Origin: a phage
NCBI GenBank assembly: GCA_011911785.1
Contig: GCA_011911785.1_4084.1
DNA length: 64,000 nt
Strand: one strand, 5' to 3'
Positions 475-62,822 of the stretch are shown one piece after another. The position numbers and the translations under genes are program-made. The notes beneath the pieces are model-generated. The model made no database searches, was not told where the DNA came from, and saw only the letters and a list, made by a program, of their open reading frames with translations. Each line of letters opens with the position of its first letter. Position 1 is the stretch's first letter.

Positions 475-1621
<1,147 letters not shown>

Positions 1622-1622
1622 A

Positions 1623-1680
<58 letters not shown>

Positions 1681-1685
1681 CAATC

Positions 1686-1841
<156 letters not shown>

Positions 1842-1870
1842 CAAAAACGAAATTACAATAGGAAATTAAA

Positions 1871-2056
1871 ATGCAACTTTTAATTCTTTCAATATTGTAT
1901 ATTATTATAATGGTTCCGATATCAATACGTTTAATTACAGTTGAACGATTTTTATCGAAACATGGAAATAGGTCTATGATCTTTGTACCAATCGGTCTGA
2001 TATTGTTTGGTATATTTGCATTTATAATGGGAATTAACGCTACATTCATTTCATAG
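1871..2056 (+). CDS. small hydrophobic membrane protein
   Basis: ATG with AGGAAA upstream; two hydrophobic segments. Confidence 0.5.
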   Translation: MQLLILSILYIIIMVPISIRLITVERFLSKHGNRSMIFVPIGLILFGIFAFIMGINATFIS

Positions 2057-2065
2057 GAAACAAAT

Positions 2066-2547
<482 letters not shown>

Positions 2548-2554
2548 AAGAACG

Positions 2555-2587
<33 letters not shown>

Positions 2588-2588
2588 C

Positions 2589-2644
<56 letters not shown>

Positions 2645-2645
2645 T

Positions 2646-2879
<234 letters not shown>

Positions 2880-2882
2880 TGT

Positions 2883-3227
<345 letters not shown>

Positions 3228-15133: not shown

Positions 15134-15530
15134 ACTAATTCTAAGTAAGCCCAAAGTACAAATACAAGCTCAAGAGGCTTTTGATATATACGAGGCATTG
15201 AATAATTGTAATTATGATTTACTCAATAAGCATTGTAGATCCAAAGTAGCTCTTGATTTGATTTGTGAACAAATGACAGTTAGTAACTTTTCAAAAAATT
15301 ACAACATTCACTATTTTGGATTTGATGGTTCACCTACAAAATTTGATTATAATTCTGCTTATGCAGAATTGGTTAATAGTAAGAAAAACATCAAAATAAC
15401 TGAATTCATTGCCTTGTATTTTTTCACAAAACTTGGTATAGTAACTGGATGTAAAGATCCCTTCCCATTTGATAAGGTATTGAAAGGAAGAGAACTTGAT
15501 ATATATTCCGCATTCTTAGATAAGGTGTAG
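15099..15530 (+). CDS. hypothetical protein (start uncertain)
   Basis: Frame overlaps end of previous gene; first ATG chosen. Confidence 0.35.
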   Translation: MILKKIRYFLSKLILSKPKVQIQAQEAFDIYEALNNCNYDLLNKHCRSKVALDLICEQMTVSNFSKNYNIHYFGFDGSPTKFDYNSAYAELVNSKKNIKITEFIALYFFTKLGIVTGCKDPFPFDKVLKGRELDIYSAFLDKV

Positions 15531-15531
15531 A

Positions 15532-16029
15532 ATGACTACAGTATATGTTGACAAGCGTGTTGGATTATTGCTCACTGATTCACGAGTAACAACCACTACT
15601 GAGAGGTACTTTCTCGGATTATTCCCGTTAAAACCAAAAAAACAATATGGTGTAGTTACTCAAAAATCATTATACATTCATGATCGTCTGTTTAGTGCCG
15701 CAGGTTCAGTGAATGAAATCAATAAAGTATTGATGTATCTGATATATGGTGATATAGTACTACCCAGTAGAAAAGAGAACTGCCATTGTGTCTTGTTGTC
15801 CAAAGATTATTGTATTCACTTAGGAACAAAGAACGGGAAGTTTTTTAAGTACCTTGAGTTCATGCATGAGGAATATGTGTTCTTCATGGGAAGTGGTGGA
15901 GAGTACATGGTTGATGCTGCTGTGCATGAGAACCAAGACACACTACTTCAAAAAATATTCAGTACTTTCAAAGAGGTAAAAAACCACGATGAATATACTG
16001 ACGACAATATTAATGTATACCAATTTTGA
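15532..16029 (+). CDS. hypothetical protein
   Basis: Starts 2 nt after previous stop. Confidence 0.55.
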   Translation: MTTVYVDKRVGLLLTDSRVTTTTERYFLGLFPLKPKKQYGVVTQKSLYIHDRLFSAAGSVNEINKVLMYLIYGDIVLPSRKENCHCVLLSKDYCIHLGTKNGKFFKYLEFMHEEYVFFMGSGGEYMVDAAVHENQDTLLQKIFSTFKEVKNHDEYTDDNINVYQF

Positions 16030-16050
16030 TTTTTTCATTAGGAGAAGTAA

Positions 16051-17013
16051 GTGAAGAAACTAGACTTAAACGCAATTTCCGAAGAAGTACTGGATGAATG
16101 TTTTGCGAATGAAGAAGTCAATCCATTGGAAGCAATTGAACCATCAGAAGTTATTGAAGATGATATTCCACATAAAGTTCGTAGTAAAAGTAACATTAGT
16201 CTCAAGCGTCCAGTAGGTGTGACTAATGAATCCATCATCGAAGAGATTCGTGCTGGAATTAATGTAAAAAAGAACACTGACCTATTACTTCGTTATAACT
16301 ATGGTATGATCGTTGATGTTGCTTCAAAGTGTACATGTTATATTCCGTTTGAAGATAAAATTGCATATGGTGTAGAAGGTTTTATGCGAGCACTTAAAAC
16401 CTTTGATCTTAGTAAGAATGTCAAATTCATTACATATGCAACAACGTCCGTTTATATGACTATGTATAATGAAAGTTCAGATGCAAATTACATGGTGTAC
16501 TTACCACGTTATATGAGCGTTCATAACATCCAAGTACGTCGATTTAATGAATCATATCAACGTGAACACGGTAAGCGACCTACACCAGAATTAATCTCTG
16601 AGAGTACTGGTATCGAGCTTCAGCACGTTAAGAACTGTTTGTTATACCAGAATGCATATACGACTCTTGATGCACAACTGGGTTCAGATTCAGACGGAAC
16701 CCTTGGGGATATTCTGAGTTCATCTGCTCGTGATTATAACCTTAATGTTGATAGCATTTGTAATCCATTACGTTATGCAATCACAGAAATCATTGACGAA
16801 TTGAGTACTAAAGAACGAGAAATTATCATGCGTGTTCATGGTCTGGGGGATTACAAAGCAGAAACCCTTCGTGAAATTTCTGATAATGGATATGTTGATG
16901 ATAAAGGAAACATTGTTAAGTCCCGTTCATCTGTGCACCGAAAATATAGTGAAGCTATTCAAAAGCTTAAAAAAATAGTACTTGAAAAAGGGTACGAATA
17001 CGAAGATTTCTAA
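16051..17013 (+). CDS. sigma-70 family RNA polymerase sigma factor-like protein (divergent)
   Basis: GTG start after GGAG; region-2-like ...KFITYATTSVYM... and region-4-like C-terminal segment. Confidence 0.6.
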   Translation: MKKLDLNAISEEVLDECFANEEVNPLEAIEPSEVIEDDIPHKVRSKSNISLKRPVGVTNESIIEEIRAGINVKKNTDLLLRYNYGMIVDVASKCTCYIPFEDKIAYGVEGFMRALKTFDLSKNVKFITYATTSVYMTMYNESSDANYMVYLPRYMSVHNIQVRRFNESYQREHGKRPTPELISESTGIELQHVKNCLLYQNAYTTLDAQLGSDSDGTLGDILSSSARDYNLNVDSICNPLRYAITEIIDELSTKEREIIMRVHGLGDYKAETLREISDNGYVDDKGNIVKSRSSVHRKYSEAIQKLKKIVLEKGYEYEDF

Positions 17014-17020
17014 AGAAAAA

Positions 17021-17048
17021 GGGTTGACTTAGGTCAGCCCTTTTTTTA
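17021..17048 (+). terminator. intrinsic terminator (GGGTTGAC-TTAG-GTCAGCCC plus T7)
   Basis: Hairpin plus T-run directly after sigma-like gene. Confidence 0.7.
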
Positions 17049-17560
17049 TGGGACAAAATGGATGTTCATGATACAATGATATTGTACAATTCTGTTGGCA
17101 TGGATGACATGAACCTGATCCACTCGAAAATGTAGAGGGCAGTTGAGCAGTCCAGCAGTGCGAAGTGCAGAAGAAACCCGTCAGATGTGGGCATATTATG
17201 AACCCCTCACGGCAATGCGGCACTATAAAGAACCACGTTAGGATGGCTGGTGGTTCCTCGATAGACATATAAGGATAACACCTTACGAATTATCTAAGGG
17301 AGAGTTATCAAATTTTGTACAGGAAAGTTGCGTCCAAAATTTGAGTACTCACATTAAGTATTTGATTGCATAGATACTTAATGAAGATACACTATGTTTA
17401 AAAGTGTAGACCGTCATATGAAACTGAAGTAGAGAGAAACAGGATGACCCGCTTTCGTACTCATTAAGAGTAATCTTCAATGCAATAGCTCTGATACCAT
17501 CAGCGTCAAATTCCCCTCCCAGCGGGGGGAAGAAAAATCCCTTCCTCAAATCCCGTCAAT
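17049..17560 (+). ncRNA. candidate structured non-coding region (function unknown)
   Basis: ~500 bp with no plausible ORF, locally higher GC, several G/C-rich inverted repeats. Confidence 0.2.
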
Positions 17561-17571
17561 ATTAAAAGTCC

Positions 17572-17600
17572 TTGACAGTTATTAATCATTCGCGTAGAAT
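17572..17600 (+). promoter_or_regulatory. sigma70-type promoter (TTGACA-17-TAGAAT)
   Basis: Hexamers read directly. Confidence 0.55.
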
Positions 17601-17664
17601 ACGTAGTATTAGAAGCGAACAGACATCTCGAAGAGATGGATGACTAACTATTAAGGAACATTCA

Positions 17665-17874
17665 ATGAATACTACAATCTTTTTAATTGTTGCTCTTTCA
17701 ATGCAATCCGGTGTACAAATTACCCCTATGAATTCATTAAACCAATGTTTTTCTGTACGTGATAGTACATACGAACAAGTAAACAAAAATTCTTGGATGA
17801 CAGTTAGTGAAGAACAAATGTGGTGTTACAAAAGTGATATTAAAGCGAAATTTATTGTAGGACAAACTCAATGA
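17665..17874 (+). CDS. small secreted protein
   Basis: Signal-peptide-like N-terminus. Confidence 0.5.
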   Translation: MNTTIFLIVALSMQSGVQITPMNSLNQCFSVRDSTYEQVNKNSWMTVSEEQMWCYKSDIKAKFIVGQTQ

Positions 17875-18065
17875 TTTATCGAGTGAGGTTTGAAGTTTGT
17901 AAAATTGTTTTCAATAGCAAAGGTGAAGCCTCACTCGATGAAACTCTGCACATATATAATCTCCAATTTAGGGCAAAAACAGAAGCTGATGCATTAGTAA
18001 ACATGTTTAATTTCAACCATAGGTGCGGGTATCATTTAGTAAGAGTTATAGAGGTTAAAAAGTAA
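17871..18065 (+). CDS. hypothetical protein
   Basis: ATGA overlap. Confidence 0.5.
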   Translation: MIYRVRFEVCKIVFNSKGEASLDETLHIYNLQFRAKTEADALVNMFNFNHRCGYHLVRVIEVKK

Positions 18066-18095
18066 TTACCGAATGCAGTGAAGAGGAAATCTAAA

Positions 18096-18890
18096 ATGAG
18101 TACTATCGATGAATTGATTCGACGGAATTCAAAATATTACCAACCATCAGAAATTGTGGATAATATTACTAAATCTGAGTTTGGACCTAATACTCGCAAA
18201 CTCATTCATGTAATGTCTCGTGACGGCTTTAAATGTGATTGTTGTGGTGAATCCAATGTAGTATTCACTTTACATAAGCACAGTACTAAAGAACGTTATA
18301 AATTCAGACCTTATGTACTTAAAGGGAAACGTCTTGTACGCATGACGTTAGACCATAATGTACTGGACTGTCTCCAGGGTGGTAATGATAAAGAAAACAT
18401 GACTGCACTGTGTGAGGATTGTAATGCCTTACGCCAGCATAAGTTCGCAGAGTACAGCGAGTTTAAGTACTGGTATCATAATGCAGACCGTTCAATTGAG
18501 CCTAATGTAAACTACTGCTTCATTGAGTACATCAAGAATGCAAAAGATACATACATTCTTAAATCCATGTCTCCGATTACAGTGTTTCCTGAGAATCTAT
18601 TCAGTACTATGGAGCGTGATTTTAAGCGTGGTATCATCAATGCATTCAAGCACTTAGACAAAGGTATCAAACACTTTGATGTTGAATGTTTAAATTCAGG
18701 TATGAATCGTTTAGTACAAATTTACATGAAATCGTTTATAGGTATTGACAGTGCACGACTACCAGTATATAATTACTTTATTGAAAGCGTAGAAGGTGAA
18801 TCACTTCGTGATTATGGTGAAAGATTTAATAAGAAAGTCTTCACTGCAATAGCAAATGAGATTCATTACTATAAACCATATGTAATTTAA
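18096..18890 (+). CDS. HNH-type endonuclease-like protein (possible homing endonuclease)
   Basis: CDCCG...TLDHN...GGNDKENMTALCEDCN motif arrangement typical of HNH nucleases. Confidence 0.55.
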   Translation: MSTIDELIRRNSKYYQPSEIVDNITKSEFGPNTRKLIHVMSRDGFKCDCCGESNVVFTLHKHSTKERYKFRPYVLKGKRLVRMTLDHNVLDCLQGGNDKENMTALCEDCNALRQHKFAEYSEFKYWYHNADRSIEPNVNYCFIEYIKNAKDTYILKSMSPITVFPENLFSTMERDFKRGIINAFKHLDKGIKHFDVECLNSGMNRLVQIYMKSFIGIDSARLPVYNYFIESVEGESLRDYGERFNKKVFTAIANEIHYYKPYVI

Positions 18891-25443: not shown

Positions 25444-25450
25444 TTAAAAA

Positions 25451-25483
25451 AGGTTGACTAACGTCAGCCTTTTTTGTTATACT
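25451..25483 (+). terminator. terminator hairpin fused to extended -10 promoter (TGtTATACT)
   Basis: AGGTTGACTAACGTCAGCCT hairpin, T-run, then -10. Confidence 0.6.
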
Positions 25484-29726: not shown

Positions 29727-29735
29727 TAAAAAAAG

Positions 29736-29768
29736 AGGTTGACTTCGGTCAGCCTTTTTTGCTATAAT
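29736..29768 (+). terminator. terminator hairpin (UUCG loop) fused to extended -10 promoter (TGcTATAAT)
   Basis: AGGTTGACTTCGGTCAGCCT, T6, TGCTATAAT. Confidence 0.7.
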
Positions 29769-32175: not shown

Positions 32176-32202
32176 TATGTACGCATTGTATAATAAAGAA
32201 AA

Positions 32203-32235
32203 GGGTTGACTTCAGTCAGCCCTTTTTGCTATAAT
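32203..32235 (+). terminator. terminator hairpin fused to extended -10 promoter (TGcTATAAT)
   Basis: GGGTTGACTTCAGTCAGCCC, T5, TGCTATAAT. Confidence 0.7.
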
Positions 32236-32925: not shown

Positions 32926-32931
32926 TATAAG

Positions 32932-32964
32932 GGGTTGACTTCGGTCAGCCCTTTTTGCTATAAT
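32932..32964 (+). terminator. terminator hairpin (UUCG loop) fused to extended -10 promoter
   Basis: GGGTTGACTTCGGTCAGCCC, T5, TGCTATAAT. Confidence 0.7.
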
Positions 32965-34347: not shown

Positions 34348-34355
34348 AACAAAAA

Positions 34356-34387
34356 GGTTGACTTCGGTCAGCCCTTTTTGCTATAAT
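34356..34387 (+). terminator. terminator hairpin (UUCG loop) fused to extended -10 promoter
   Basis: GGTTGACTTCGGTCAGCC, T5, TGCTATAAT. Confidence 0.7.
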
Positions 34388-54197: not shown

Positions 54198-54869
54198 ATG
54201 AAACTCAATCCACAAAGCAAACGATACCTACAGCACTTTAAGTACCTACAATCAATCCAGGCTGAATCTACCACTAATGCATATACTTATCATCCTAATG
54301 TACTAAAGAACCTAAAGAAAAGTAAAAAAACCAGTACAAATGGAGTTAACGTATCAAAGAACCTTGAATTGTACATGAAGAAAAATAATATAGCTGTTCA
54401 TTATATGAATATCTATAATACTGATTTAAAAGTATTGAGTACTAATACGAGCATGAAGGTACTAAAGAACGCATCCTTCATCATCCATATGCAGTTGGAT
54501 AATACCCCGTGCACTTTAATGCTATACTTCGGGAATACATACTTCTTCGGGAATTGTAACACCTCCCACGATGTCAATACAGCACAATTCCAAATGGGTG
54601 GCATATACAGTATGGGTTCAGAAGAAATACACGATAACATGCATTTCTTCCAACAGCAACGTACAGAAGAAACTAAATCAATTGTAGAATTCCTCAAAGA
54701 ACTACAAGGCAAAGAATTATCAGAAGAAGAACTATTCATGTACAGTACTGTAATCGATAATCCTGTACTGTACAAAAACGCGTACAATCTTACAAAACAT
54801 GTACAGGAACTTATCAGTACTAATAAGAAAATTCATCACCTCATTACATATATTACAAACTATGCATAA
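54198..54869 (+). CDS. hypothetical 223-aa protein embedded in the small-gene array
   Basis: ATG after AAGGAGACTAAA. Confidence 0.55.
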   Translation: MKLNPQSKRYLQHFKYLQSIQAESTTNAYTYHPNVLKNLKKSKKTSTNGVNVSKNLELYMKKNNIAVHYMNIYNTDLKVLSTNTSMKVLKNASFIIHMQLDNTPCTLMLYFGNTYFFGNCNTSHDVNTAQFQMGGIYSMGSEEIHDNMHFFQQQRTEETKSIVEFLKELQGKELSEEELFMYSTVIDNPVLYKNAYNLTKHVQELISTNKKIHHLITYITNYA

Positions 54870-55044
54870 AGAATACTACGTAAGTAAACTTACAATAGAT
54901 CTCCAAAAACTTATTCCCCAAAAACCTGTAGATTTCAAAGATAAAAGCCAAACTATATTCTACCGATATCAAACAGAATCTGCAATAAATGAAGATGATA
55001 TCTATAACCTGTACAATGTACTAACACTTATATACAGGTACTAA
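54862..55044 (+). CDS. small paralog-array protein (MHKEYY...LIYRY)
   Basis: Internal ATG; conserved N- and C-terminal motifs. Confidence 0.6.
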   Translation: MHKEYYVSKLTIDLQKLIPQKPVDFKDKSQTIFYRYQTESAINEDDIYNLYNVLTLIYRY

Positions 55045-55045
55045 T

Positions 55046-55234
55046 ATGCACAAAGAATACTACACAAAATATTTCCCAATGTACCTCAGAACTAATCTAT
55101 TAGATAAACCTCGCGGTATCAATGCACAAAACGATAAAAAGTACTTTACTATGTGCACTAAAGCATGTATACAAGATTATGATAGCTATCATCGAGTACT
55201 GTACCACACCCTGTACCTCGCATTCGTGTACTAA
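55046..55234 (+). CDS. small paralog-array protein (MHKEYY...LAFVY)
   Basis: Starts 2 nt after stop. Confidence 0.6.
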   Translation: MHKEYYTKYFPMYLRTNLLDKPRGINAQNDKKYFTMCTKACIQDYDSYHRVLYHTLYLAFVY

Positions 55235-55243
55235 GGAAATCAT

Positions 55244-55444
55244 ATGCATAAAGAACACTACATAAAAGAACTACCAAAGTTTCTACAAGGCAATCTATTA
55301 GATGATGAACCTCGCGACATTAACTGTATATACGAAGCTGATTACTTCCGTACATGTACTGAACAAGTACTTAATGAAGAAGTTAATGAAAACAATTCTC
55401 AAGTGCAACTGTACCACACTCTGTATCTCGCGTTCCAGTACTAA
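55244..55444 (+). CDS. small paralog-array protein (MHKEHY...LAFQY)
   Basis: Conserved termini. Confidence 0.6.
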   Translation: MHKEHYIKELPKFLQGNLLDDEPRDINCIYEADYFRTCTEQVLNEEVNENNSQVQLYHTLYLAFQY

Positions 55445-55452
55445 GGACTAAT

Positions 55453-55635
55453 ATGTATAAAGAATTTTATAAAGATCATCTCCCAATGCATCTCCAACAC
55501 CATGTGCCAACAAAACCATTGGGCATAAAAGATCATGCAAAAATAATGTTCCAACAATGTACTAAGTACACCCTAATATACGATGACAATCCATATATGC
55601 TGTACTACATAACAATGCTAATATTCAGGTACTAA
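55453..55635 (+). CDS. small paralog-array protein (MYKEFY...LIFRY)
   Basis: Conserved termini. Confidence 0.6.
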   Translation: MYKEFYKDHLPMHLQHHVPTKPLGIKDHAKIMFQQCTKYTLIYDDNPYMLYYITMLIFRY

Positions 55636-55637
55636 TC

Positions 55638-55838
55638 ATGTATAAAGAATACTATATGAGTAAACTATCAAGCACCGAAAGAATCTGGTGCGGAGCCGCC
55701 GCCCCCGTTAATCCAAAAAGTGCATACGCAAAAATGTGCTTTAGGAAAGCTACAACGAACTCAATTGAAGCTCTAGAACAAGATGACACTAAAGCACTAT
55801 ACTCTAACCTAATGTTGCTAGTATATATCTATGGATAA
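55638..55838 (+). CDS. small paralog-array protein (MYKEYY...)
   Basis: Conserved termini. Confidence 0.6.
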   Translation: MYKEYYMSKLSSTERIWCGAAAPVNPKSAYAKMCFRKATTNSIEALEQDDTKALYSNLMLLVYIYG

Positions 55839-56022
55839 TTATAAAGAATACTATAAACAATTTGTTAAAGAGAACTACAAAGATGCCGTCCCCGTAATCC
55901 CTTTAAATTCCCATGACCCAAGTTCTATATTCTTGTTTAAGGACGCAATACGTACAGTACTCAATACTAAAGATGAACAGGTGCAGTACGTATTCTTACT
56001 ATTACTTATATACAGACACTAA
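55831..56022 (+). CDS. small paralog-array protein (YKEYY...LIYRH)
   Basis: Conserved termini. Confidence 0.6.
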   Translation: MDNYKEYYKQFVKENYKDAVPVIPLNSHDPSSIFLFKDAIRTVLNTKDEQVQYVFLLLLIYRH

Positions 56023-56023
56023 T

Positions 56024-56221
56024 ATGAATGACCATAAAGAATTCTATATAAGTAAACTCAAAGAGAATGAACAAGTATGGATTAACGCTCTAATCCCTCT
56101 ACCAATGACTCGATATGAATTTAATAAATGTACTAATATAGCAATAGACCCTTCTCCTGTTCTAGAGAATGTACAGTACAATCAGTACTACTATATCTTA
56201 ATGCTTATATATAGGAAGTAA
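56024..56221 (+). CDS. small paralog-array protein (HKEFY...LIYRK)
   Basis: Internal ATG 2 nt after previous stop. Confidence 0.6.
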   Translation: MNDHKEFYISKLKENEQVWINALIPLPMTRYEFNKCTNIAIDPSPVLENVQYNQYYYILMLIYRK

Positions 56222-56851
56222 TTAAACACATATAGCTAGGGGAAGCTCCGTAGTGCAAGCATTATACAGGCTTTAACATATGTTGCATATGTTAAAATTC
56301 AGCCTGGACAAATGCGATCACTAGGATTCTCCCCAGGCTAAACCCCGTAATCATAGGTAGTCATAAGTAATCATATATAAACATTTAAGTAATCATTTAT
56401 AATCATTGCAGTGAAGAGTATTGAGTACTGTTTCCCCTATATGATTCAGTACTGATATCCCACTAAGTAGGCAAATGAAGTCGCCCAAAATTTACATAAT
56501 TTTACAGTACTGAACAATTGCAAAACAAATCATTTCCAATCAAAAGTAATCACGGAATGACCAGTACTGAAAACTCCCAATCACCTATTCAAAAAAGTTC
56601 AATTTACCCTTTGTCAAAAATCCCGAATACCCATTGGGGAAAATTCCGAATACCCCTTGAGGCTCCAGCAAAAAGTTGGTTAGTACTCCATTGTAAATCT
56701 GGATCGTAAAAATTTTGGAGTACCTATGAAATAAAAGTTGGATCTTCGAAAGTTGAAATTTACATTGGGACATATAGGATTAGTGGGATATAATGAGTTT
56801 TGAAGAGATACAGAAGATATGTTTTCAGTACTGAATAATGAAAGAAATCTA

Positions 56852-56879
56852 TTGACATTATGATTCAGTACTGTATAAT
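56852..56879 (+). promoter_or_regulatory. orphan sigma70-type promoter (TTGACA-16-TATAAT) in non-coding hub
   Basis: Consensus hexamers with no ORF downstream. Confidence 0.45.
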
Positions 56880-57280
56880 GTTCTACATAGAGTGATGGAT
56901 TGCCGCAAACAATTCAGAGCCTTAACCCTCCTGTCGTGAGACAGTACAGAAGAGATTGAATCCTCCTATGCAGTGGTTCATCTTTGACAACCTCTTTTTT
57001 CGTAATATAAACAGTACTGTTATTAACAGAATGGTAGCAGTACTGATATTAATCTAATATAATGTTACCATGCAATGTGGTGAATTTCCCTTAACAGTAT
57101 TCAGTACTACATGATAGTCTTCATCCTCCTAGGGTAACATAGTGAGGGCTATTGTGGCAGTACTGAATACTCCTTTCACAAGATAGATCTATGGTATAGT
57201 ACTGACGGATTTTGGGCGTAGTAACCCTGGGTGGATTTTGGACGTAGAGATGCCTAGCCCTCCAGAAGTCTGGAAGTAAA

Positions 57281-57408
57281 GATGGCTATCCCTCTAGACG
57301 GCTGGATGGCTAGATTTCTAGATGGCTGTACTGCTAGACGTTTGGACGGCTAAACGGCTAAACGGCTAAACGGCTAGATGGTTAAACGTCTGGATGTATA
57401 GACGGCTA
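57281..57408. repeat. tandem array of ~16 copies of an 8-bp unit (consensus GAYGGCTA)
   Basis: Direct reading: gatggcta, gacggctg, gatggcta, gacggcta, aacggcta x3, gatggtta, gacggcta etc. in strict 8-bp register. Confidence 0.85.
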
Positions 57409-57573
57409 AATCAAAATTTTTATTTTGTTTTTTCCAATAGTTCCCCTACCGCGTGGGGATGGTTTCCCCGCAGTATCTGGAGTTAGATTTTTCTGAATCT
57501 GGAATCATTATCTAATAAACTGGGGGCAATGTCAACCGCCTGGATGAATATTTTTAAAAATAATCTAGTACTG

Positions 57574-57650
57574 AATTTTGGGCGTAACTATGCACCCGGT
57601 GGGCTAGAGTCTTTCTCGACTTGATGAAATAATTATAGCAGTACTGAATG
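57574..57650 (+). repeat. repeat element B copy (ttttgggcgta...gcacccggtgggctagag...taattata)
   Basis: Shares ~50-bp core with copies at 57786, 59660, 61176. Confidence 0.5.
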
Positions 57651-57785
57651 ATAAAAGCAATAGCCTAAGTGTAAAAAGTTTTAATTAATTTGCTTGCCAT
57701 CCTGGGGCGTACTATGGTACTATGATTCAGTACTGAGAAAGTGCTTTTACCTGCTAGGGTGCGGGAGTGTATCCTTTTTAAATTT

Positions 57786-57860
57786 ACTGAATTTTGGGCG
57801 TAGTTCCGCACCCCCTGGGGTATCCGCTTTCTCGCGTCTATGTAGTAATTATACGCTTTT
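57786..57860 (+). repeat. repeat element B copy
   Basis: ttttgggcgtagttccgcaccccctggggtatccgctttctcgcgtctatgtagtaattatac. Confidence 0.5.
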
Positions 57861-58078
57861 TTAGTACTGAGTCAATAGCTAAAAACAAAATAATTGAAAA
57901 TAATTTAACGCGTTTAAATGGCCCGTAAAGCCCTGGATTGTTGGGAGTGGTGCAAATGTATAGCTTAGGTGTATTAATGCGTTAGAATGCGTATGAGGCC
58001 GTTTTAAGGGTATAGTACTGAATAATAGTACTCCTATATAGAAAGAAAACTATTTTAAAAAGTATTTGTAGAAAGTAC

Positions 58079-58106
58079 TTGCAAAGTATTGGGAAAGGTG
58101 TAGAAT
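58079..58106 (+). promoter_or_regulatory. early-type promoter (aaaagtacTTGCAA-16-TAGAAT-gttttacatc)
   Basis: First of >=12 near-identical promoter units in block C. Confidence 0.6.
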
Positions 58107-58120
58107 GTTTTACATCGAGA

Positions 58121-58137
58121 GCGGGAACACTTCCCGC
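58121..58137 (+). promoter_or_regulatory. 5' leader hairpin (GCGGGAA-CAC-TTCCCGC)
   Basis: Inverted repeat between -10 and SD. Confidence 0.55.
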
Positions 58138-58161
58138 TACACTTTAAGAGAGATTAAAACG

Positions 58162-58524
58162 ATGGCTACTCAAATCAATAAAATTATTGCTAACCTGGTT
58201 AACTTCCGCGAAGAGATGAAAGGTCTTCCGGCTGAAACTGTAAAGATTCACATTTCAGCTTATCGGGAATTGATTGCGATGTTACCGCTTAAGCGTGAAC
58301 AATACGCCGCTACCGTGATGCTTGATGCGATGATCCACAAGATGATTGCCAGTGATTTAACGATGGCTTATCAGTACATGGGCGAAATGTTTGCGGTGTA
58401 TAGTAAACCAGTACCAGGGATGGAAAGTACCGAAGTATTGCACGGTTTAAACTTAAAACAAGATGCATGGGATAATATGCCTCGTTTCCTGGTATGGGCT
58501 GACAGTGGCAAGATTTACGAATAA
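58162..58524 (+). CDS. hypothetical protein
   Basis: ATG downstream of leader hairpin; track start 58105 lies in the -10. Confidence 0.6.
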   Translation: MATQINKIIANLVNFREEMKGLPAETVKIHISAYRELIAMLPLKREQYAATVMLDAMIHKMIASDLTMAYQYMGEMFAVYSKPVPGMESTEVLHGLNLKQDAWDNMPRFLVWADSGKIYE

Positions 58525-58538
58525 GTTTTAAAAAGTAC

Positions 58539-58566
58539 TTGCAAACTAAGTTTAAAAGCGTATAAT
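58539..58566 (+). promoter_or_regulatory. early-type promoter (TTGCAA-16-TATAAT)
   Basis: Repeated promoter unit. Confidence 0.6.
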
Positions 58567-58578
58567 ACTTTCTATCAG

Positions 58579-58597
58579 GTGGGGAATAGTTCCCCAC
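58579..58597 (+). promoter_or_regulatory. 5' leader hairpin (GTGGGGAA-TAG-TTCCCCAC)
   Basis: Perfect 8-bp inverted repeat. Confidence 0.6.
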
Positions 58598-58618
58598 TAC
58601 AAATAAGAGAATTTAAAA

Positions 58619-58858
58619 ATGGCTACTACTAAAACTTTCAACGGTCACAAAAACAAAACTCAATGGAATGTAAGCCTTTGGATTAATAACGATGAGTCAT
58701 TGTATCGTCTGGCGAAAGAATTTATCGACGCTAATACTAATCGTAATGATGCGGCCCGTCATATGATGCTATTTTTAGAACAAATTGGACAAGATAAAAC
58801 ACCGGACGGATTCAAGTATAGCACTACTGCGATCCGTGCTGCAATGGTTGGCATGTAA
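58619..58858 (+). CDS. hypothetical protein
   Basis: ATG after AAGAGAATTTAAAA. Confidence 0.6.
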   Translation: MATTKTFNGHKNKTQWNVSLWINNDESLYRLAKEFIDANTNRNDAARHMMLFLEQIGQDKTPDGFKYSTTAIRAAMVGM

Positions 58859-58939
58859 GAGAATAGATTAAAAGTACTATTGCACGGTGATAGTACTTTA
58901 TAATAGATTTCTTTTATACATCAACGATGGGGTAACAGC

Positions 58940-59206
58940 ATGAATATTATATACTTTGCAACGCGTGAACTAGCTCGGATTGCAGCACGCCAGGACGGGG
59001 CGACGTTTAAAGATATGGGTGTACAATCGGAACGTGGTAAACGTTGGGCCGTAGTAAAGCAAAGTACAGCCCGATCAATTCAGTACTGGTTAGCGGCGTT
59101 AAAAAGTCCTGATAGTGTATCGCGTCGAGTAGTAGAAATAAAGCACGACCGCAAGGGCAACCGTGTTACTGTGTACAGTACTAAAAAGATTGCAGTACTT
59201 GAATAA
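58940..59206 (+). CDS. hypothetical basic protein
   Basis: ATG after GGGGTAACAGC. Confidence 0.55.
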   Translation: MNIIYFATRELARIAARQDGATFKDMGVQSERGKRWAVVKQSTARSIQYWLAALKSPDSVSRRVVEIKHDRKGNRVTVYSTKKIAVLE

Positions 59207-59212
59207 AAGTAC

Positions 59213-59240
59213 TTGCATACTAAGTTTAAAAGCGTATAAT
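59213..59240 (+). promoter_or_regulatory. early-type promoter (TTGCAT-16-TATAAT)
   Basis: Repeated promoter unit. Confidence 0.6.
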
Positions 59241-59252
59241 ACTTTATATCAG

Positions 59253-59271
59253 GTGGGGAATACTTCCCCAC
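59253..59271 (+). promoter_or_regulatory. 5' leader hairpin (GTGGGGAA-TAC-TTCCCCAC)
   Basis: Inverted repeat; loop differs from the 58579 copy. Confidence 0.6.
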
Positions 59272-59292
59272 TACAATGAAGAGGATTTTAAA

Positions 59293-59523
59293 ATGGCTAT
59301 CATGTATATGACCGAAGTTAAAACCGTAAAAGATACTACCACTAATAAAACTACTTACTTACAGCGGGTATGCGGTGTATGGCAACGTATTAGTAAAGCA
59401 AAGTACTTTAAATTAACATCATATGCTAATCGTTCGGATTCATTCAGTACTGAAATAAAAGGTAATAAATTACACCAATACGGCACTTATTATTATTATA
59501 GCCTGGACGCGATTGCAGTCTAA
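59293..59523 (+). CDS. hypothetical protein
   Basis: ATG after AAGAGGATTTTAAA. Confidence 0.6.
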   Translation: MAIMYMTEVKTVKDTTTNKTTYLQRVCGVWQRISKAKYFKLTSYANRSDSFSTEIKGNKLHQYGTYYYYSLDAIAV

Positions 59524-59659
59524 GCAGTTTACAAATCTTTACAATTGCCGGTATTGACTTATTTTGTCAGTACTGGCATAATGTATCTATTGAAACGAAC
59601 AATTTGGCCCACGGGGTGCGGGAGTGTATCTATAGAAAAAGTAGTTTAGTACAGTTACA

Positions 59660-59710
59660 ATTGTGCACCCGGTGGGTTAGCTGTTGTCATGGGGTATATT
59701 ATACCAGTAC
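59660..59710 (+). repeat. repeat element B copy (partial)
   Basis: gtgcacccggtgggttagctgttgtcatggggtatattatac. Confidence 0.4.
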
Positions 59711-59772
59711 TTGATAATGCTGTCAATACTTTTTTTTACTATTCAGTACTGAAAACTATTTTTAAAAAGTAC

Positions 59773-59800
59773 TTGCAAACTATGTTTAAAGGCGTATAAT
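59773..59800 (+). promoter_or_regulatory. early-type promoter with leader hairpin but no ORF (degenerate duplicate of the next unit)
   Basis: TTGCAA-16-TATAAT, hairpin 59814-59841, then ccaggagtaaggcatacg where the next unit has ccaggagtaagcatcATG. Confidence 0.5.
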
Positions 59801-59890
59801 GTTTTACATCAGGACGGGGAACGAAATAAGTAACTCCCCGTTAAGTAGCCCAGGAGTAAGGCATACGAAAAACTCCCCTGATAAAATAGT

Positions 59891-59918
59891 TTGACAATTG
59901 TTTTTAAAAGCGTATAAT
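59891..59918 (+). promoter_or_regulatory. early-type promoter (TTGACA-16-TATAAT)
   Basis: Repeated unit; leader hairpin 59931-59953. Confidence 0.6.
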
Positions 59919-59973
59919 ACTTTACATCGAGGCGGGGGAATGATTCTCCCGCCTATAACCAGGAGTAAGCATC

Positions 59974-60207
59974 ATGATCGAACAAATCAAAACTACTACA
60001 AGCCGGACTGGAACGAAAGTACATTGCATCGCTGATAACGAAAAAGGCGTACCCTATTGTGCTGTACACGTAAACACAGATGGCGACTATTGGTTAACTG
60101 TATATGGGAGTTATTCGTTTGCTCGACCTGCTCATAGTAAGATCCTGGACGTAGTGAAGCCTACCGGAAAGGATATCACGGTAGAAAAATATTTTACTAA
60201 GCACTAA
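59974..60207 (+). CDS. hypothetical protein
   Basis: ATG after CCAGGAGTAAGCATC. Confidence 0.6.
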   Translation: MIEQIKTTTSRTGTKVHCIADNEKGVPYCAVHVNTDGDYWLTVYGSYSFARPAHSKILDVVKPTGKDITVEKYFTKH

Positions 60208-60214
60208 AAAGTAC

Positions 60215-60242
60215 TTGCATACTAAGTTTAAACGAGTATAAT
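60215..60242 (+). promoter_or_regulatory. early-type promoter (TTGCAT-16-TATAAT)
   Basis: Repeated unit; leader hairpin ~60256-60276. Confidence 0.6.
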
Positions 60243-60295
60243 ACTTTATATCGAGGCGGGGGAATGGTTCCCCTGCATTTACAGAGGATTATCTA

Positions 60296-60583
60296 ATGAG
60301 CAAAGTAATTGACTATAAAGTGTTAACCAAATCATTTTCTATCAGCCAGTGCACCGATGGTTATTGGCTTTATGATGAAACACGCGGCATGAATTTAGCT
60401 ATGCGGGAGAAAACTGCTGAGGCGGCGTATGTGCAAGCCCTGGAATACTACCAGAAACGTTTAAAGGAAGTAGAAGAGGATTATAAAAGCCTCAAAGAGA
60501 AAGTAGATAATTTCGTCGGTCAATTCGTTGACGATGACGAGGAAGACGGGTACTACTGCAACCGCTGCGGATCTTACAATTAA
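60296..60583 (+). CDS. hypothetical protein with C-terminal CNRCG motif
   Basis: ATG after AGAGGATTATCTA. Confidence 0.6.
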   Translation: MSKVIDYKVLTKSFSISQCTDGYWLYDETRGMNLAMREKTAEAAYVQALEYYQKRLKEVEEDYKSLKEKVDNFVGQFVDDDEEDGYYCNRCGSYN

Positions 60584-60600
60584 GTACTGAGGATTATCTA

Positions 60601-60804
60601 ATGAGTGATTTAATCGACCGTATCAAAGAGCTTGAAGAAAAAGAATTGCAGTTAATCGGCTTACAAAATAAAATCTTTCATGATTTGGGGAGTTTTATCA
60701 ATGCCTGGGATAGTGGCGATCCTGCTGCGTTACCTGCTAACCGCGAGGCGATGATCAATGATGTGCGTGGTGTCTTTGAGTATGTTTTAAAGCAATTAAA
60801 TTAA
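60601..60804 (+). CDS. hypothetical protein
   Basis: ATG after GAGGATTATCTA (duplicate of upstream RBS); co-transcribed. Confidence 0.6.
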   Translation: MSDLIDRIKELEEKELQLIGLQNKIFHDLGSFINAWDSGDPAALPANREAMINDVRGVFEYVLKQLN

Positions 60805-60812
60805 AAAAGTAC

Positions 60813-60840
60813 TTGCAATTAGTTTTCAGTACTGTATAAT
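60813..60840 (+). promoter_or_regulatory. early-type promoter (TTGCAA-16-TATAAT)
   Basis: Repeated unit; leader hairpin 60853-60871 (GGGGAGA/TCTCCC). Confidence 0.6.
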
Positions 60841-60890
60841 AGTTTACATCAAGGGGAGAAATGGTTCTCCCTGGTAATGAGGAAAATAAA

Positions 60891-61112
60891 ATGGCTAATA
60901 TCACTACTCTTTCCCAACTTGAAGCACTGGTTAAATCTATGCGGGAACATGCCGACAATATCGGCGTAAAAGATCCAGCCGTTTGCTTCTGCGACGAATT
61001 GAATGATGATACATTGGTAATAGCAGAAGTCCAGGACGTTTCTAACTATTCATCGCGTTACACTGGCGGCGTAGCAAATAAAGGTGACTTCTGTTTATAC
61101 CTTACAAAATAA
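60891..61112 (+). CDS. hypothetical protein
   Basis: Internal ATG after GAGGAAAATAAA; track start is inside the leader hairpin. Confidence 0.6.
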   Translation: MANITTLSQLEALVKSMREHADNIGVKDPAVCFCDELNDDTLVIAEVQDVSNYSSRYTGGVANKGDFCLYLTK

Positions 61113-61117
61113 CAACG

Positions 61118-61147
61118 AGGGGATCAATTGATCCCCTTTCTTTTTTC
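61118..61147 (+). terminator. intrinsic terminator (GGGGATCAATTGATCCCC plus T-run)
   Basis: Perfect palindromic stem followed by T-run. Confidence 0.75.
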
Positions 61148-61175
61148 AGTACTGAATCATTTAATAGACGGATCT

Positions 61176-61235
61176 ATGCACCCGGTGGGTTAGAGACTGT
61201 TTCGTCTTTATGTAGTAATTATACAGTACTGGATG
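61176..61235 (+). repeat. repeat element B copy
   Basis: tatgcacccggtgggttagagactgtttcgtctttatgtagtaattatac. Confidence 0.5.
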
Positions 61236-61357
61236 CAGTTGTCAAGAACTATTTTTCAAATACTTTTATATTAATGTACTATACAATAGTTTTTAAACGC
61301 GTATAATGTTTTACATCTAGTCGGGAATACTCCCTAGTACTAACAAAGGATATACAA

Positions 61358-61657
61358 ATGAAAACTGCAATCATCGCCCTGGCTTTATCTGTTTCCTCTT
61401 TCGCTGTTAATGCGTCGTTAGATGTACCTGGTGATAAATTCATTCAGTGCACCGTAGCAATGACCGATGAAAGTACTGGCGAGATTGTTTTAAAGGATCT
61501 GGAATTACAGCCAGAAGCATTTAAAAACGGGCCGTTCCATGAAGAAGACGAAAACGGTAGCACAACAATTTATTATGATGCAAAGAAAAAACGCGGTTCG
61601 GTCACTGTTATGGATACTGAGAAAGTAACGCATACAGGCGTTATTAACTGCCTATAA
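61358..61657 (+). CDS. secreted small protein (signal peptide)
   Basis: MKTAIIALALSVSSFAVNA signal peptide; ATG after AAAGGATATACAA. Confidence 0.6.
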   Translation: MKTAIIALALSVSSFAVNASLDVPGDKFIQCTVAMTDESTGEIVLKDLELQPEAFKNGPFHEEDENGSTTIYYDAKKKRGSVTVMDTEKVTHTGVINCL

Positions 61658-61677
61658 TACATCAGTACTGAATCACT

Positions 61678-61705
61678 AGCCCACTATAAGCAGTGGGCTT
61701 TTTTG
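61678..61705 (+). terminator. intrinsic terminator (AGCCCACT...AGTGGGCT plus T-run)
   Basis: Hairpin plus T6; near-duplicate of terminator at 62408. Confidence 0.7.
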
Positions 61706-61752
61706 TAGTATCGTAGTACTGGAATACTTTGAAAATAGTTTTAAAAAAGTAG

Positions 61753-62386: not shown

Positions 62387-62407
62387 CAATTAAAGTACTG
62401 AATCACT

Positions 62408-62814: not shown

Positions 62815-62822
62815 AAAATAGT

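What the first reader, a model, noticed from the sequence alone, without database searches (positions are those of the whole stretch)
16051..17560. Sigma-70-family factor gene followed by a ~500-bp structured non-coding region
The 320-aa protein has region-2-like and region-4-like segments, so the phage may redirect host RNA polymerase with its own sigma. Downstream, after a terminator, is ~500 bp without a credible ORF, with higher GC than its surroundings and several G/C-rich inverted repeats (e.g. ccctcccagcgggggg). This could be a stable RNA, a regulatory leader or a degenerate intron-like element.
Basis: partly seen in the sequence, partly recalled or inferred. Interest (0 to 1): 0.55.

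Follow-up and report, generated by a model that had tools for sequence, protein, structure and literature searches.

The report
New large structured phage RNA gene
Next to an ordinary phage sigma-factor gene lies an unannotated gene for a roughly 480-base, intricately folded RNA that matches no catalogued RNA family, is kept in 4-5 copies in every giant phage of this group, and also occurs in mobile islands of enterobacterial chromosomes.

Summary
Both observations are real, but they are two separate things. ORF 16051-17013 is a standard phage sigma-70-family factor. It is already annotated as such in relatives, because the window is an Escherichia phage A4-like Asteriusvirus jumbo phage. After its intrinsic terminator (17014-17047), the "500-bp non-coding region" is an independent gene for a structured RNA of about 480 nt (about 17084-17562, + strand). 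It has its own promoter at 17049-17077.

In 43 distinct copies, 72 proposed base pairs are 94.5% paired, against 34-40% in slid controls, and 55 pairs show compensatory changes. Two pseudoknots are included; one 7-bp pseudoknot covaries at all 7 positions in 99 copies. No Rfam 15 family matches, and ARAGORN finds no tRNA or tmRNA there.

The RNA is more conserved than the flanking genes (92.6% against about 80%). It occurs 4-5 times per genome, co-oriented and evenly spaced, in all 62 RaK2-like phage records searched. It occurs once in enterobacterial genomic islands between an integrase and a CI-like repressor. A second subfamily with a different 5' half occurs in other large phages. Its flanking genes differ between sites and are sometimes convergent, so it is neither a leader nor an intron.

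Its function is unknown. The best reading is a trans-acting folded RNA of a new class.

The parts
16051..17013 (+). Sigma-70-family RNA polymerase sigma factor gene (320 aa, GTG start, AGGAG ribosome-binding site at 16040-16044). It has regions 2-4, no region 1.1, and an insertion of about 8 aa in region 4.2.
17014..17047 (+). Intrinsic terminator of the sigma gene: GC stem GGGUUGAC/GUCAGCCC, loop UUAG, U7 tail. It belongs to a terminator repeat family in this window.
   Evidence: -21 kcal/mol, z = -5.6; annotated in G17 and UE-S1
17049..17077 (+). Promoter of the RNA gene: TGGGACA, 16 nt, extended -10 TGaTACAAT. This TGRRAC class differs from the 29 canonical TTGAC-N17-TATAAT promoters in the window. 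The predicted transcription start is about 17084.
   Evidence: the same class is described for CBB and GAP32 in PMC5259590
17084..17562 (+). Gene for the ~480-nt structured RNA. Both ends are inferred. The profile-HMM match covers 17109-17573.
17084..17111 (+). 5' leader with the conserved motif ACAAUUCUGUUGG. Other copies carry a variable hairpin here.
17115..17142 (+). P1 hairpin (CUG-CC-CUC / GAG-GG-CAG) with the conserved loop GAAAAUGUA.
17164..17224 (+). P4-P5 arm. P4 is 17164-68/17220-24 and P5 is 17178-81/17209-12. It includes the near-invariant internal loop AGAAGAAAC / CAAUGCG and the apical loop GCAUAUUAUGAAC.
   Evidence: possible tertiary pairing 17215-17 with 17266-68
17230..17256 (+). 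P6 hairpin. All 7 pairs show compensatory changes.
17257..17303 (+). Conserved junction CUCGAUAGACAUA, P7 hairpin (17270-73/17282-85), and the near-invariant UAAGGGAG.
17309..17343 (+). P8 hairpin module (9-bp stem; loop equivalent to the consensus UGUACAAUAUAGAUCCGUCC). In some paralogs the same module sits at the P13 position instead, and in island copies it sits at both positions.
17352..17383 (+). P9 hairpin. Its loop bases 17365-17371 form pseudoknot PK2 with 17480-17486.
   Evidence: 7 of 7 pairs covary
17388..17408 (+). P10 hairpin.
17409..17486 (+). 3' core: the invariant GACCGU, pseudoknot PK1 (17413-17/17444-48), three-way junction P11 (17425-29/17475-79), P12 (17432-36/17452-56) with loop AAACAGGAUGACCCG, P13 (17458-62/17468-72), and the 3' strand of PK2. 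This is the most widely conserved part and is shared with subfamily B.
17493..17531 (+). Many paralogs carry a terminator-like hairpin plus U-run between P14 and P15; this copy does not.
17546..17562 (+). Conserved 3' tail UCAAAUCCCGUCAAUAU. It repeats the 3' strand of P14 (CGUCAA) and changes together with it in subfamily B (ACGAAG). An invariant UCA could pair with UGA at 17144-46 (P2), which cannot be tested.
17572..17600 (+). Near-consensus sigma-70 promoter (TTGACA-17-TAGAAT) for the downstream small ORFs (17665-17874, 17871-18065) and the HNH endonuclease gene (18078-18890). It is not part of the RNA.

Best explanation
There are two adjacent but separate genes.

(1) ORF 16051-17013 encodes a phage sigma-70-family factor. 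It presumably replaces host sigma on the E. coli core RNA polymerase to read phage-specific promoters. It ends at a strong intrinsic terminator.

(2) Region 17049-17562 is a self-contained gene for a compactly folded RNA of about 480 nt. It is one of 4 paralogous copies in this phage, and other genera carry 5. It is transcribed rightward from its own extended -10 promoter of the TGRRAC class, starting at about 17084. It folds into about 15 helices with at least two pseudoknots and several invariant loops and junctions.

I propose that it acts in trans as a free-standing folded RNA particle. It would work by binding a macromolecule, by assembling with itself or with proteins, or by catalysis. 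It does not appear to regulate its neighbours in cis. It would be made in quantity (multiple gene copies, strong promoters) during infection, and from single copies in islands resident in the host chromosome.

Shown here: conservation above that of the flanking genes, the helices and pseudoknots (by covariation), the strand (by G-U pairs), the conserved promoter motif, multi-copy occurrence, independence from neighbouring genes, and no match to any known family.

Inferred, not shown: that it is transcribed and stable, its exact ends, that it acts in trans, and everything about its target.
For: Identity of the phage:
- The window is 99.6% identical to Escherichia phage A4, an Asteriusvirus.

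Conservation:
- The region is 92.6% identical to 121Q-type phages, where the flanks are about 80% identical.
- It is about 70% identical over about 440 nt to genera as distant as Mimasvirus, Eneladusvirus and Xanthomonas phages.

Structure:
- RNAalifold predicts 64 pairs, 36 of them with compensatory changes.
- The curated structure has 72 pairs including 2 pseudoknots. On 43 distinct copies 94.5% of cells are paired, against 34-40% when the 3' partners are slid.
- 55 of the 72 pairs show changes on both sides, covering 603 compensatory cells against 48-92 in the slid controls. The covariation score is 0.526 against 0.06-0.09, and 0 of 500 shuffles reach the observed value.
- In 99 copies, all 7 pairs of PK2 covary.
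- Invariant G-U pairs are compatible only with the + strand.
- A hairpin module is found at alternative positions in different paralogs.

Not protein-coding:
- The longest stop-free stretch has a median of 76 aa, in differing frames and strands.

Not a known RNA:
- No Rfam 15 hit in the window at the gathering threshold, or at E <= 10 on the region itself.
- No hit overlapping the RNA in 12 diverse phage copies at E <= 1; the only two matches (Arrc14, Trp_leader) lie outside it on the opposite strand. No hit at it in the bacterial loci either.
- ARAGORN finds only five tRNA genes, all at 922-3217.

Promoter:
- All 97 copies have a TAYAMT box upstream, and 79 also have a TGRRAC-like -35.

Copy number:
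- All 62 matching RaK2-like phage records hold 4-5 places, 264 in all.

Independence from neighbours:
- The flanking genes differ between sites.
- One syntenic site lies between minus-strand endonuclease VII and baseplate-hub genes.
- In the islands, the CI-like repressor gene converges on the RNA gene.

Sigma factor:
-.
Against: - No transcript data were available for any member. RNA-seq exists only for PA5oct, whose lncRNAs are not homologous.
- The single-sequence folding energy is not exceptional (z = -1.78).
- This copy has no obvious terminator of its own. P15 is not followed by a U-run, so read-through into the downstream genes cannot be excluded here.
- Terminator-like hairpins inside the element (before P15) and right after the promoter in some paralogs are unexplained by a simple stable-RNA model.
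- Even spacing and co-orientation of the copies (p about 0.005) hint at a function tied to the chromosome rather than a purely diffusible RNA.
- No partner protein or target has been identified.
Confidence: 0.68

Rival explanations
1. Replication-origin or primer RNA. Each copy would mark one of several replication origins. A transcript from a middle-type promoter would fold, as ColE1 RNA II does, and then form an R-loop or be processed into a primer, as at T4 oriF and oriG. The islands would carry a copy in order to be replicated by an infecting phage.
For: - There are five co-oriented copies spaced 52-85 kb apart around genomes of about 355 kb. The chance of such even spacing is about 0.005.
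- The promoter class TGAAACG/TGRRAC plus TATAAT is the one that CBB and GAP32 use mostly for DNA-synthesis genes (PMC5259590).
- A G-rich run is conserved near the 3' end.
- The size is similar to that of RNA II (my own knowledge).
Against: - The region is richer in GC than the genome, and no AT-rich unwinding element or iterons were seen.
- An elaborate tertiary fold with two pseudoknots and a relocated hairpin module is more than a primer is known to need.
- In about half of the copies a terminator-like hairpin precedes the G-run.
- In the islands the RNA lies between int and cI, not next to replication genes.
- The spacing is one inherited arrangement, not independent observations.
Confidence: 0.12
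2. A cis-acting leader: a very large attenuator, riboswitch, or put-like processive antiterminator that controls read-through into the genes downstream of each copy.
For: - Most copies are co-oriented with downstream genes.
- This copy lacks its own terminator.
- Terminator-like hairpins sit inside the element in many paralogs.
- The 3' tail repeats the 3' strand of P14 and changes together with it in subfamily B. This suggests two mutually exclusive pairings.
Against: - A separate near-consensus promoter lies between the RNA and the next ORF here (17572-17600).
- The downstream genes are unrelated between sites.
- In two conserved contexts the downstream genes are convergent: endonuclease VII and baseplate hub in 21-25 loci, and the island CI repressor in 11 loci.
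- At 480 nt it is far larger than any known leader of this kind (my own knowledge).
Confidence: 0.1
3. No RNA function. The region would be a repeated DNA element (a recombination or packaging signal, or a promoter/terminator cassette), a decayed gene, or a decayed intron.
For: - UE-S1 annotators marked part of it only as 'repeat_region'.
- Several annotators called small hypothetical ORFs inside it.
- The window does contain repeated terminator/promoter cassettes.
Against: - Compensatory double substitutions maintain Watson-Crick and G-U pairing on one strand only, including long-range pseudoknots. DNA signals and decaying genes do not produce this.
- The called ORFs differ in frame and strand between phages, and there is no conserved reading frame.
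- No gene is interrupted.
- Rfam's intron models give no hit.
Confidence: 0.04

Closest known systems
ROOL, GOLLD and OLE: large 'ornate' bacterial and phage non-coding RNAs (Rfam; cryo-EM structures in PMC12286853)
   Same: - Several hundred nucleotides long.
- Dense conserved secondary and tertiary structure with pseudoknots.
- Free-standing genes with no obligatory neighbouring protein gene.
- Association with phages and prophages (ROOL and GOLLD).
- Function unknown.
   Different: - No sequence or structure similarity: no Rfam hit at E <= 10.
- Found in Enterobacteriaceae phages and islands rather than in Bacillota or rumen and lake metagenomes.
- 4-5 evenly spaced copies per genome.
- Not next to tRNA genes.
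- Oligomerisation is untested.
PA5oct ncRNA001-004 ('putative lncRNA', RNA-seq-defined; PMC7318152)
   Same: - Hundreds of nucleotides long (ncRNA002 is 451 nt).
- ORF-free.
- ncRNA001 and ncRNA002 are highly transcribed in a jumbo phage that the authors describe as related to the RaK2, 121Q and GAP32 group.
- Function unknown.
   Different: ncRNA002 was fetched (L016) and gives no profile-HMM match, and none of the invariant motifs are present. It is therefore analogous at most. The other three PA5oct ncRNAs were not tested.
ColE1 RNA II and T4 oriF/oriG origin transcripts (my own knowledge)
   Same: - A promoter-driven, non-coding transcript of about 0.5 kb.
- In RNA II the fold matters for function.
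- T4 has several origins that use middle promoters.
- Here the promoter class is the one linked to DNA-synthesis genes, and there are several evenly spaced copies.
   Different: - No evidence of R-loop formation or origin activity.
- The tertiary structure is much more elaborate.
- It is also present between int and cI in islands.
Sigma-70 family, group 1/2-like phage sigma factors (phrog_351; CBB_513, 121Q gp167)
   Same: - Regions 2, 3 and 4 are present.
- The best matches are SigA, RpoD and RpoS.
- Relatives carry the same annotation.
   Different: - Short: no region 1.1 or non-conserved region.
- An insertion of about 8 residues in region 4.2 relative to a related metagenomic phage sigma.
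- Scores are far below the equivalog cut-offs, so it is not RpoD or RpoS itself.

Membership tests
Sigma-70 family (protein 16051-17013) | Region 2 (core binding, -10 recognition) | tested here: met
   Pfam Sigma70_r2 scores E 5e-5 and 23.4 bits, just under the gathering score of 24. The region aligns to region 2 of solved SigA and RpoD structures within a hit of E 3e-18.
Sigma-70 family (protein 16051-17013) | Region 3 | tested here: met
   Pfam Sigma70_r3 scores 2.9e-11 and 43.7 bits against a cut-off of 25.3.
Sigma-70 family (protein 16051-17013) | Region 4 (helix-turn-helix for -35 recognition) | tested here: inconclusive
   Pfam Sigma70_r4 gives only E 0.0023, covering residues 248-278. 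Alignments to RpoS and Thermus SigA extend to residues 301-310. Region 4.2 carries an insertion.
Sigma-70 family (protein 16051-17013) | Binds core RNA polymerase and directs promoter-specific initiation | not testable with these tools
   This needs biochemistry.
Any Rfam 15 family (RNase P, tmRNA, 6S, SRP, group I/II introns, riboswitches, ROOL, GOLLD, OLE, HEARO and others) | Covariance-model match at or near the gathering score | tested here: not met
   Only tRNAs match in the window. On 16900-17750 at E <= 10, the only matches near the terminator score far below the gathering threshold. In 12 diverse copies at E <= 1 and in 9 bacterial loci, no match falls on the RNA. ARAGORN finds no tmRNA.
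Group I or group II intron (including degenerate forms) | Inserted in a host gene whose exons join into one ORF or RNA | tested here: not met
   The upstream gene ends with its own stop codon and terminator. The downstream gene has its own promoter and start codon. The same holds at the other loci.
Cis-regulatory leader or riboswitch | Lies in the 5' UTR of, and is co-oriented with, a consistent class of regulated genes | tested here: not met
   The downstream genes are unrelated between sites, and they are convergent in two conserved contexts.
Large ornate ncRNAs (ROOL/GOLLD/OLE type): resemblance of kind, not homology | More than 400 nt, many conserved helices and pseudoknots supported by covariation, free-standing gene | tested here: met
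Large ornate ncRNAs (ROOL/GOLLD/OLE type): resemblance of kind, not homology | Homo-oligomeric RNA-only assembly | not testable with these tools
   This needs cryo-EM or native gels.
PA5oct lncRNA ncRNA002 | Sequence homology | tested here: not met
   nhmmer gives no hit on L016.
Origin or primer RNA (ColE1 RNA II / T4 ori type) | R-loop formation and initiation of DNA synthesis at the locus | not testable with these tools
   The evidence is only circumstantial: even spacing and promoter class.

The most novel reading that the evidence does not exclude
The RNA is a previously unrecognised class of large functional RNA with a chromosome-linked or catalytic role. One possibility is a structured origin or primer RNA that defines the 4-5 evenly spaced replication start sites of RaK2-like jumbo phages, with copies captured by host genomic islands that exploit or sense those phages. 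Another is a new large ribozyme or RNA-only assembly used for host take-over or against defence systems.
Probability: 0.25. Interest if true: 0.9.

Novelty: new variant of a known kind. Interest (0 to 1): 0.78.

Why it matters
Large, intricately folded non-coding RNAs are rare. The few known classes (RNase P, group I and II introns, tmRNA, OLE, ROOL, GOLLD) have each revealed new biochemistry.

This family has several useful properties:
- It is about 480 nt long, and at least 72 of its base pairs, including two pseudoknots, are supported by covariation.
- It is more conserved than the neighbouring genes.
- It is retained at syntenic sites in every RaK2-like jumbo phage record searched.
- It is shared with enterobacterial islands and with another lineage of large phages.
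- It is unannotated in GenBank, and RefSeq's PGAP annotation leaves the E. coli locus blank.
- It occurs in culturable E. coli, Salmonella, Klebsiella, Erwinia and Serratia phages that are being developed for therapy and biocontrol. Its function can therefore be tested directly by RNA-seq, deletion or cryo-EM.

It also shows that gaps of about 600-800 bp, repeatedly filled with spurious 'hypothetical protein' calls in these genomes, are RNA genes. The sigma gene itself adds nothing new.

Tried and rejected
- **Paralogs inside the window.** BLAST of the region against the window found only the shared terminator hairpin. A motif search found no second copy. The other copies lie outside this 64-kb window.
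- **Known RNA families.** Rfam was searched at the gathering threshold and at permissive E-values, on the window, on 12 phage copies and on 9 bacterial loci. ARAGORN was also run. Nothing was found at the RNA locus.
- **Resemblances noted by eye.** I considered RNase P CR-I/CR-V (GAAACCCG, ACAG..ACCCGCUU) and the TPP thi-box (ACCUGAUC). I rejected both. The candidate P4-like strands are not complementary, their real partners are fixed by covariation (P12, PK1), and the covariance models do not match.
- **PA5oct ncRNA002.** It is the same size as this RNA, but it is not homologous.
- **A conserved downstream protein partner.** The 270-aa HNH endonuclease here is unrelated to the ~265-aa protein downstream of the orthologous copy in CBB. 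No protein cluster accompanies the RNA in all contexts.
- **A -10-like box just before the conserved core.** I first read TGTACAAT (17083-17091) as the promoter. I replaced it with the conserved upstream TGRRAC-N16-18-TGnTAYAAT promoter once all copies were aligned. Island copies do carry a second TATAAT-like box about 8 nt before the core, so the true start site remains open.
- **Pairing of the 5' leader with the 3' tail.** The covariation scan gave no support. P2 (UGA/UCA) is invariant, so it cannot be tested.
- **Other candidate helices.** RNAalifold's GGA/UCC pairing across P8 and two short helices from my own covariation scan (17116-19/17413-16 and 17282-84/17434-36) conflict with better-supported helices, so I dropped them.
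- **Literature.** Searches for a prior description in RaK2-like phages and among new large RNAs found none. The bulk catalogue of about 10,000 viral candidate structured RNAs (PMC10690425) could not be checked entry by entry.
- **Structure prediction of the sigma protein.** I did not run it, because the sequence matches to solved sigma structures were already decisive.
Full report
**Origin of the window.** Region 15500-18500 is 99.6% identical to Escherichia phage A4 (ON286972) and about 80% identical to 121Q, PBECO4 and G17. All are Asteriusvirus, the RaK2-like group of jumbo phages with genomes of about 350 kb. The match to the A4 record stops at about 18115. The HNH-endonuclease gene that follows is therefore placed differently in that record.

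**The sigma gene.**
- ORF 16051-17013 (320 aa) matches Pfam Sigma70_r3 above the cut-off. It matches r2 just below the cut-off, and r4 only weakly.
- It matches solved SigA, RpoD and RpoS structures at E down to 3e-18 across regions 2 to 4.1, and up to residue 310 for RpoS.
- It matches NCBIfam RpoD_Cterm at 2e-26, far below the equivalog cut-offs, and phrog_351 'RNA polymerase sigma factor' at 2e-50.
- Relatives annotate it the same way. A 2026 review states that jumbo phages without their own RNA polymerase commonly encode sigma homologues (PMC13282480).
- This half of the finding is correct and ordinary.

**The boundary between the two genes.** The gene is followed by a strong intrinsic terminator at 17014-17047 (-21 kcal/mol, z = -5.6, then U7). 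Variants of this hairpin recur in the window.

**The non-coding region is real.**
- From 17049 to 17571 there is no ORF longer than 79 aa.
- GC content is 0.42 against 0.35 for the window, the 98.5th percentile.
- A near-consensus promoter, TTGACA-17-TAGAAT, at 17572-17600 then serves the next ORFs.
- Folding energy of the single sequence is not remarkable (z = -1.78). I therefore turned to comparison with related sequences.

**Conservation.**
- The 652 nt between the sigma gene and the next ORF are 92.6% identical between A4-type and 121Q-type phages, although the flanking genes are only about 80% identical.
- A core of about 440-460 nt is still about 70% identical in Serratia phage BF, Erwinia pEa_SNUABM phages, Pectobacterium CBB, Cronobacter GAP32, Yersinia fHe-Yen9-03/04, Xanthomonas XbC2 and XaC1, Salmonella 7t3 and Klebsiella Kae01. 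It is recognisable at both ends in RaK2.
- In all of these phages it lies in an unannotated or dubiously annotated gap of 600-800 bp. The neighbouring genes differ between phages.

**Structure.**
- The alignments show blocks of invariant sequence separated by stems with obvious compensatory changes.
- RNAalifold predicts 64 pairs, 36 of them with double-sided changes.
- I curated 15 helices, including two pseudoknots, and counted them on 43 distinct copies:

| Measure | Curated structure | 3' partners slid by 1-3 columns |
|---|---|---|
| Cells paired | 94.5% | 34-40% |
| Compensatory cells | 603 | 48-92 |
| Covariation score | 0.526 | 0.06-0.09 |

- 55 of the 72 pairs show compensatory changes, and 0 of 500 shuffles reach the observed values.
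- Pseudoknot PK2 (17365-71 with 17480-86) takes at least seven entirely different sequences while staying complementary. In 99 copies all 7 of its pairs covary.
- Invariant or frequent G-U pairs fit only the + strand.
- A hairpin module with the loop UGUACAAUAUAGAUCCGUCC occupies the P8 position in most copies. It occupies the P13 position in others, and both positions in the island copies. Structural modules of large folded RNAs commonly relocate in this way.
- There is no conserved reading frame.

**No known family matches.** Rfam 15 gives nothing at the RNA locus: on the window, on the region at E <= 10, on 12 diverse copies at E <= 1, or on the bacterial loci. ARAGORN finds only the five tRNA genes at 922-3217. 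RefSeq leaves the E. coli locus blank. UE-S1 marks part of the region as 'repeat_region'. Literature searches found no description.

**Distribution.**
- Pattern scans followed by profile-HMM confirmation recovered more than 97 distinct full-length copies.
- All 62 matching RaK2-like records in the phage collection hold 4-5 copies, 264 places in total. A4 itself has 4, and only one of them lies in this window.
- Within a genome, all copies point the same way and are evenly spaced. In GAP32 they lie at 35, 99, 178, 262 and 341 kb. CBB, Serratia BF and Yen9-04 have near-identical layouts. Such spacing would arise by chance with probability of about 0.005, although this is one inherited arrangement.
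- Several sites are syntenic across genera. One lies before a Dam methylase cluster. Another lies between endonuclease VII and the baseplate hub.
- Single copies also occur in chromosomes of Serratia, Silvania, Enterobacter and Buttiauxella, and in 2 of 5426 E. coli genomes. They lie inside integrated islands in the order integrase (serine or tyrosine type), then the RNA, then a convergent CI-like S24 repressor, then a Ner-like gene.
- A second subfamily is found in other large lytic phages from metagenomes. It keeps the 3' half (UAAGGGAG through P15) but has a different 5' half. One of these copies again lies directly after a sigma gene.

**Transcription signals.**
- Every copy has an extended -10 promoter (TGnTAYAAT) 31-127 nt upstream of the profile-HMM match (median 61 nt). 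It usually has a -35-like TGRRAC (TGGGACA here at 17049; TGAAACG in other genera and in the islands).
- This class is distinct from the 29 canonical TTGAC-N17-TATAAT early promoters in the window.
- It matches the 'divergent RpoD-like' promoter that Buttimer et al. found in CBB and GAP32, mainly upstream of DNA-synthesis genes (PMC5259590).
- A conserved leader motif (ACAAYUCUGWUUGA) follows the promoter.
- Many paralogs carry terminator-like hairpins just after the promoter or between P14 and P15. The window copy carries neither.
- The 3' tail repeats the 3' strand of P14 and changes together with it in subfamily B. This hints at alternative pairings.

**Interpretation.**
- The data establish an independent, strand-specific, structurally constrained RNA gene of a family that is not in Rfam.
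- A leader or intron reading fails for four reasons. The element follows a terminator. It has its own promoter. A separate promoter lies between it and the next ORF. Elsewhere it faces convergent genes.
- I judge a trans-acting folded RNA most likely (0.68), of the same kind as ROOL, GOLLD and OLE (PMC12286853).
- The even spacing, the co-orientation and the DNA-synthesis-type promoter keep an origin or primer-RNA role alive (0.12).
- A cis-acting attenuator or antiterminator gets 0.10, and a non-RNA explanation 0.04.
- No transcript data exist for any member, so expression, ends and function remain inferred.

Noticed in passing
window 18078-18890 (and the break at about 18115): There is a 270-aa HNH endonuclease gene (phrog_35175, E 1e-148). 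The 99.6% match to the phage A4 record stops at about 18115, so this homing-type gene is placed differently in the deposited A4 genome. It is unrelated to the protein downstream of the orthologous RNA copy in CBB.
   Followed up: partly
window 25446-25483, 29730-29768, 32199-32235, 32929-32964, 34351-34387 (also 26820 and 28104): Terminator/promoter fusion cassettes are repeated here. The terminator stem AAAGGGTTGAC..GTCAGCCCTTTTT supplies the TTGAC -35 of a following GCTATAAT -10. The sigma-gene terminator (17014-17047) is a variant whose -10 has decayed to TATGGG.
   Followed up: partly
window 58058-63167: There are eleven copies of a cassette of about 67 nt (AAAAAGTACTTGCAAAC..GCGTATAAT..ACATCAGGNGGGG). 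These are canonical early promoters, several of them followed by a short G/C hairpin (GGTGGGGAATAGTTCCCCAC), spaced 0.1-0.8 kb apart ahead of very small ORFs. This looks like a dense early-gene array.
   Followed up: no
window 56222-58104 (promoter-like site at 56766-56794; repeats at 57569, 57785, 61155): This is a 1.9-kb stretch without ORFs of 80 aa or more. It contains the only other TGGGACA-N-TATAAT promoter of the RNA-gene class in the window. It also has three copies of a 69-nt repeat with a GCACCCGGTGGGC hairpin. It may hold further non-coding RNAs. Rfam gave nothing at the gathering threshold.
   Followed up: no
window 54861-56074: Six diverged copies of a 46-70-nt unit (TATGCATAAAGAATACTAC...) are spaced about 185-390 nt apart. 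They are probably a tandem family of small paralogous genes or their starts.
   Followed up: no
window 922-3217: There is a cluster of five tRNA genes (Gly-TCC, Ser-GCT, Met-CAT, Asn-GTT, Thr-TGT), as is usual for RaK2-like phages.
   Followed up: yes
L168 224-943 and 1000-1533 (metagenome contig OERT01001273.1): In an unrelated large-phage contig that carries the divergent subfamily-B RNA, the gene immediately upstream is again a sigma-70-family factor (23% identity to the window protein, E 1e-12). In CBB the sigma gene (CBB_513) is about ten genes upstream of the orthologous RNA copy. A loose sigma-RNA neighbourhood may be ancient.
   Followed up: partly
L170 (E. coli LR-29-1, NZ_AP027515.1 3479142-3479515); L058, L060, L063, L097, L165: Bacterial islands carry a single copy of the RNA between an integrase (serine or tyrosine type) and a convergent CI-like repressor with a Ner-like gene. 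In E. coli the island sits next to ffs and the 1.4-kb gap is unannotated. In L058 the island is adjacent to corC and the sRNA STnc450.
   Followed up: partly
L004-L049, about 30-120 nt downstream of many RNA copies: A further conserved non-coding element lies downstream of many copies. It has the form GAATTGAGTT..ACGAAGTGA..CGAAAATTCTTGAC-hairpin-GGCAAAT. Part of it may be a promoter with a hairpin in the spacer. The window copy lacks it: the canonical promoter at 17572-17600 lies 10 nt after the tail of the RNA.
   Followed up: no
window 16880-16960 (protein residues about 278-300): Region 4.2 of the sigma factor carries an insertion of about 8 residues (NGYVDDKG) before the recognition helix, relative to the related metagenomic phage sigma. 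This may relate to the unusual TGRRAC -35 element of one promoter class.
   Followed up: no
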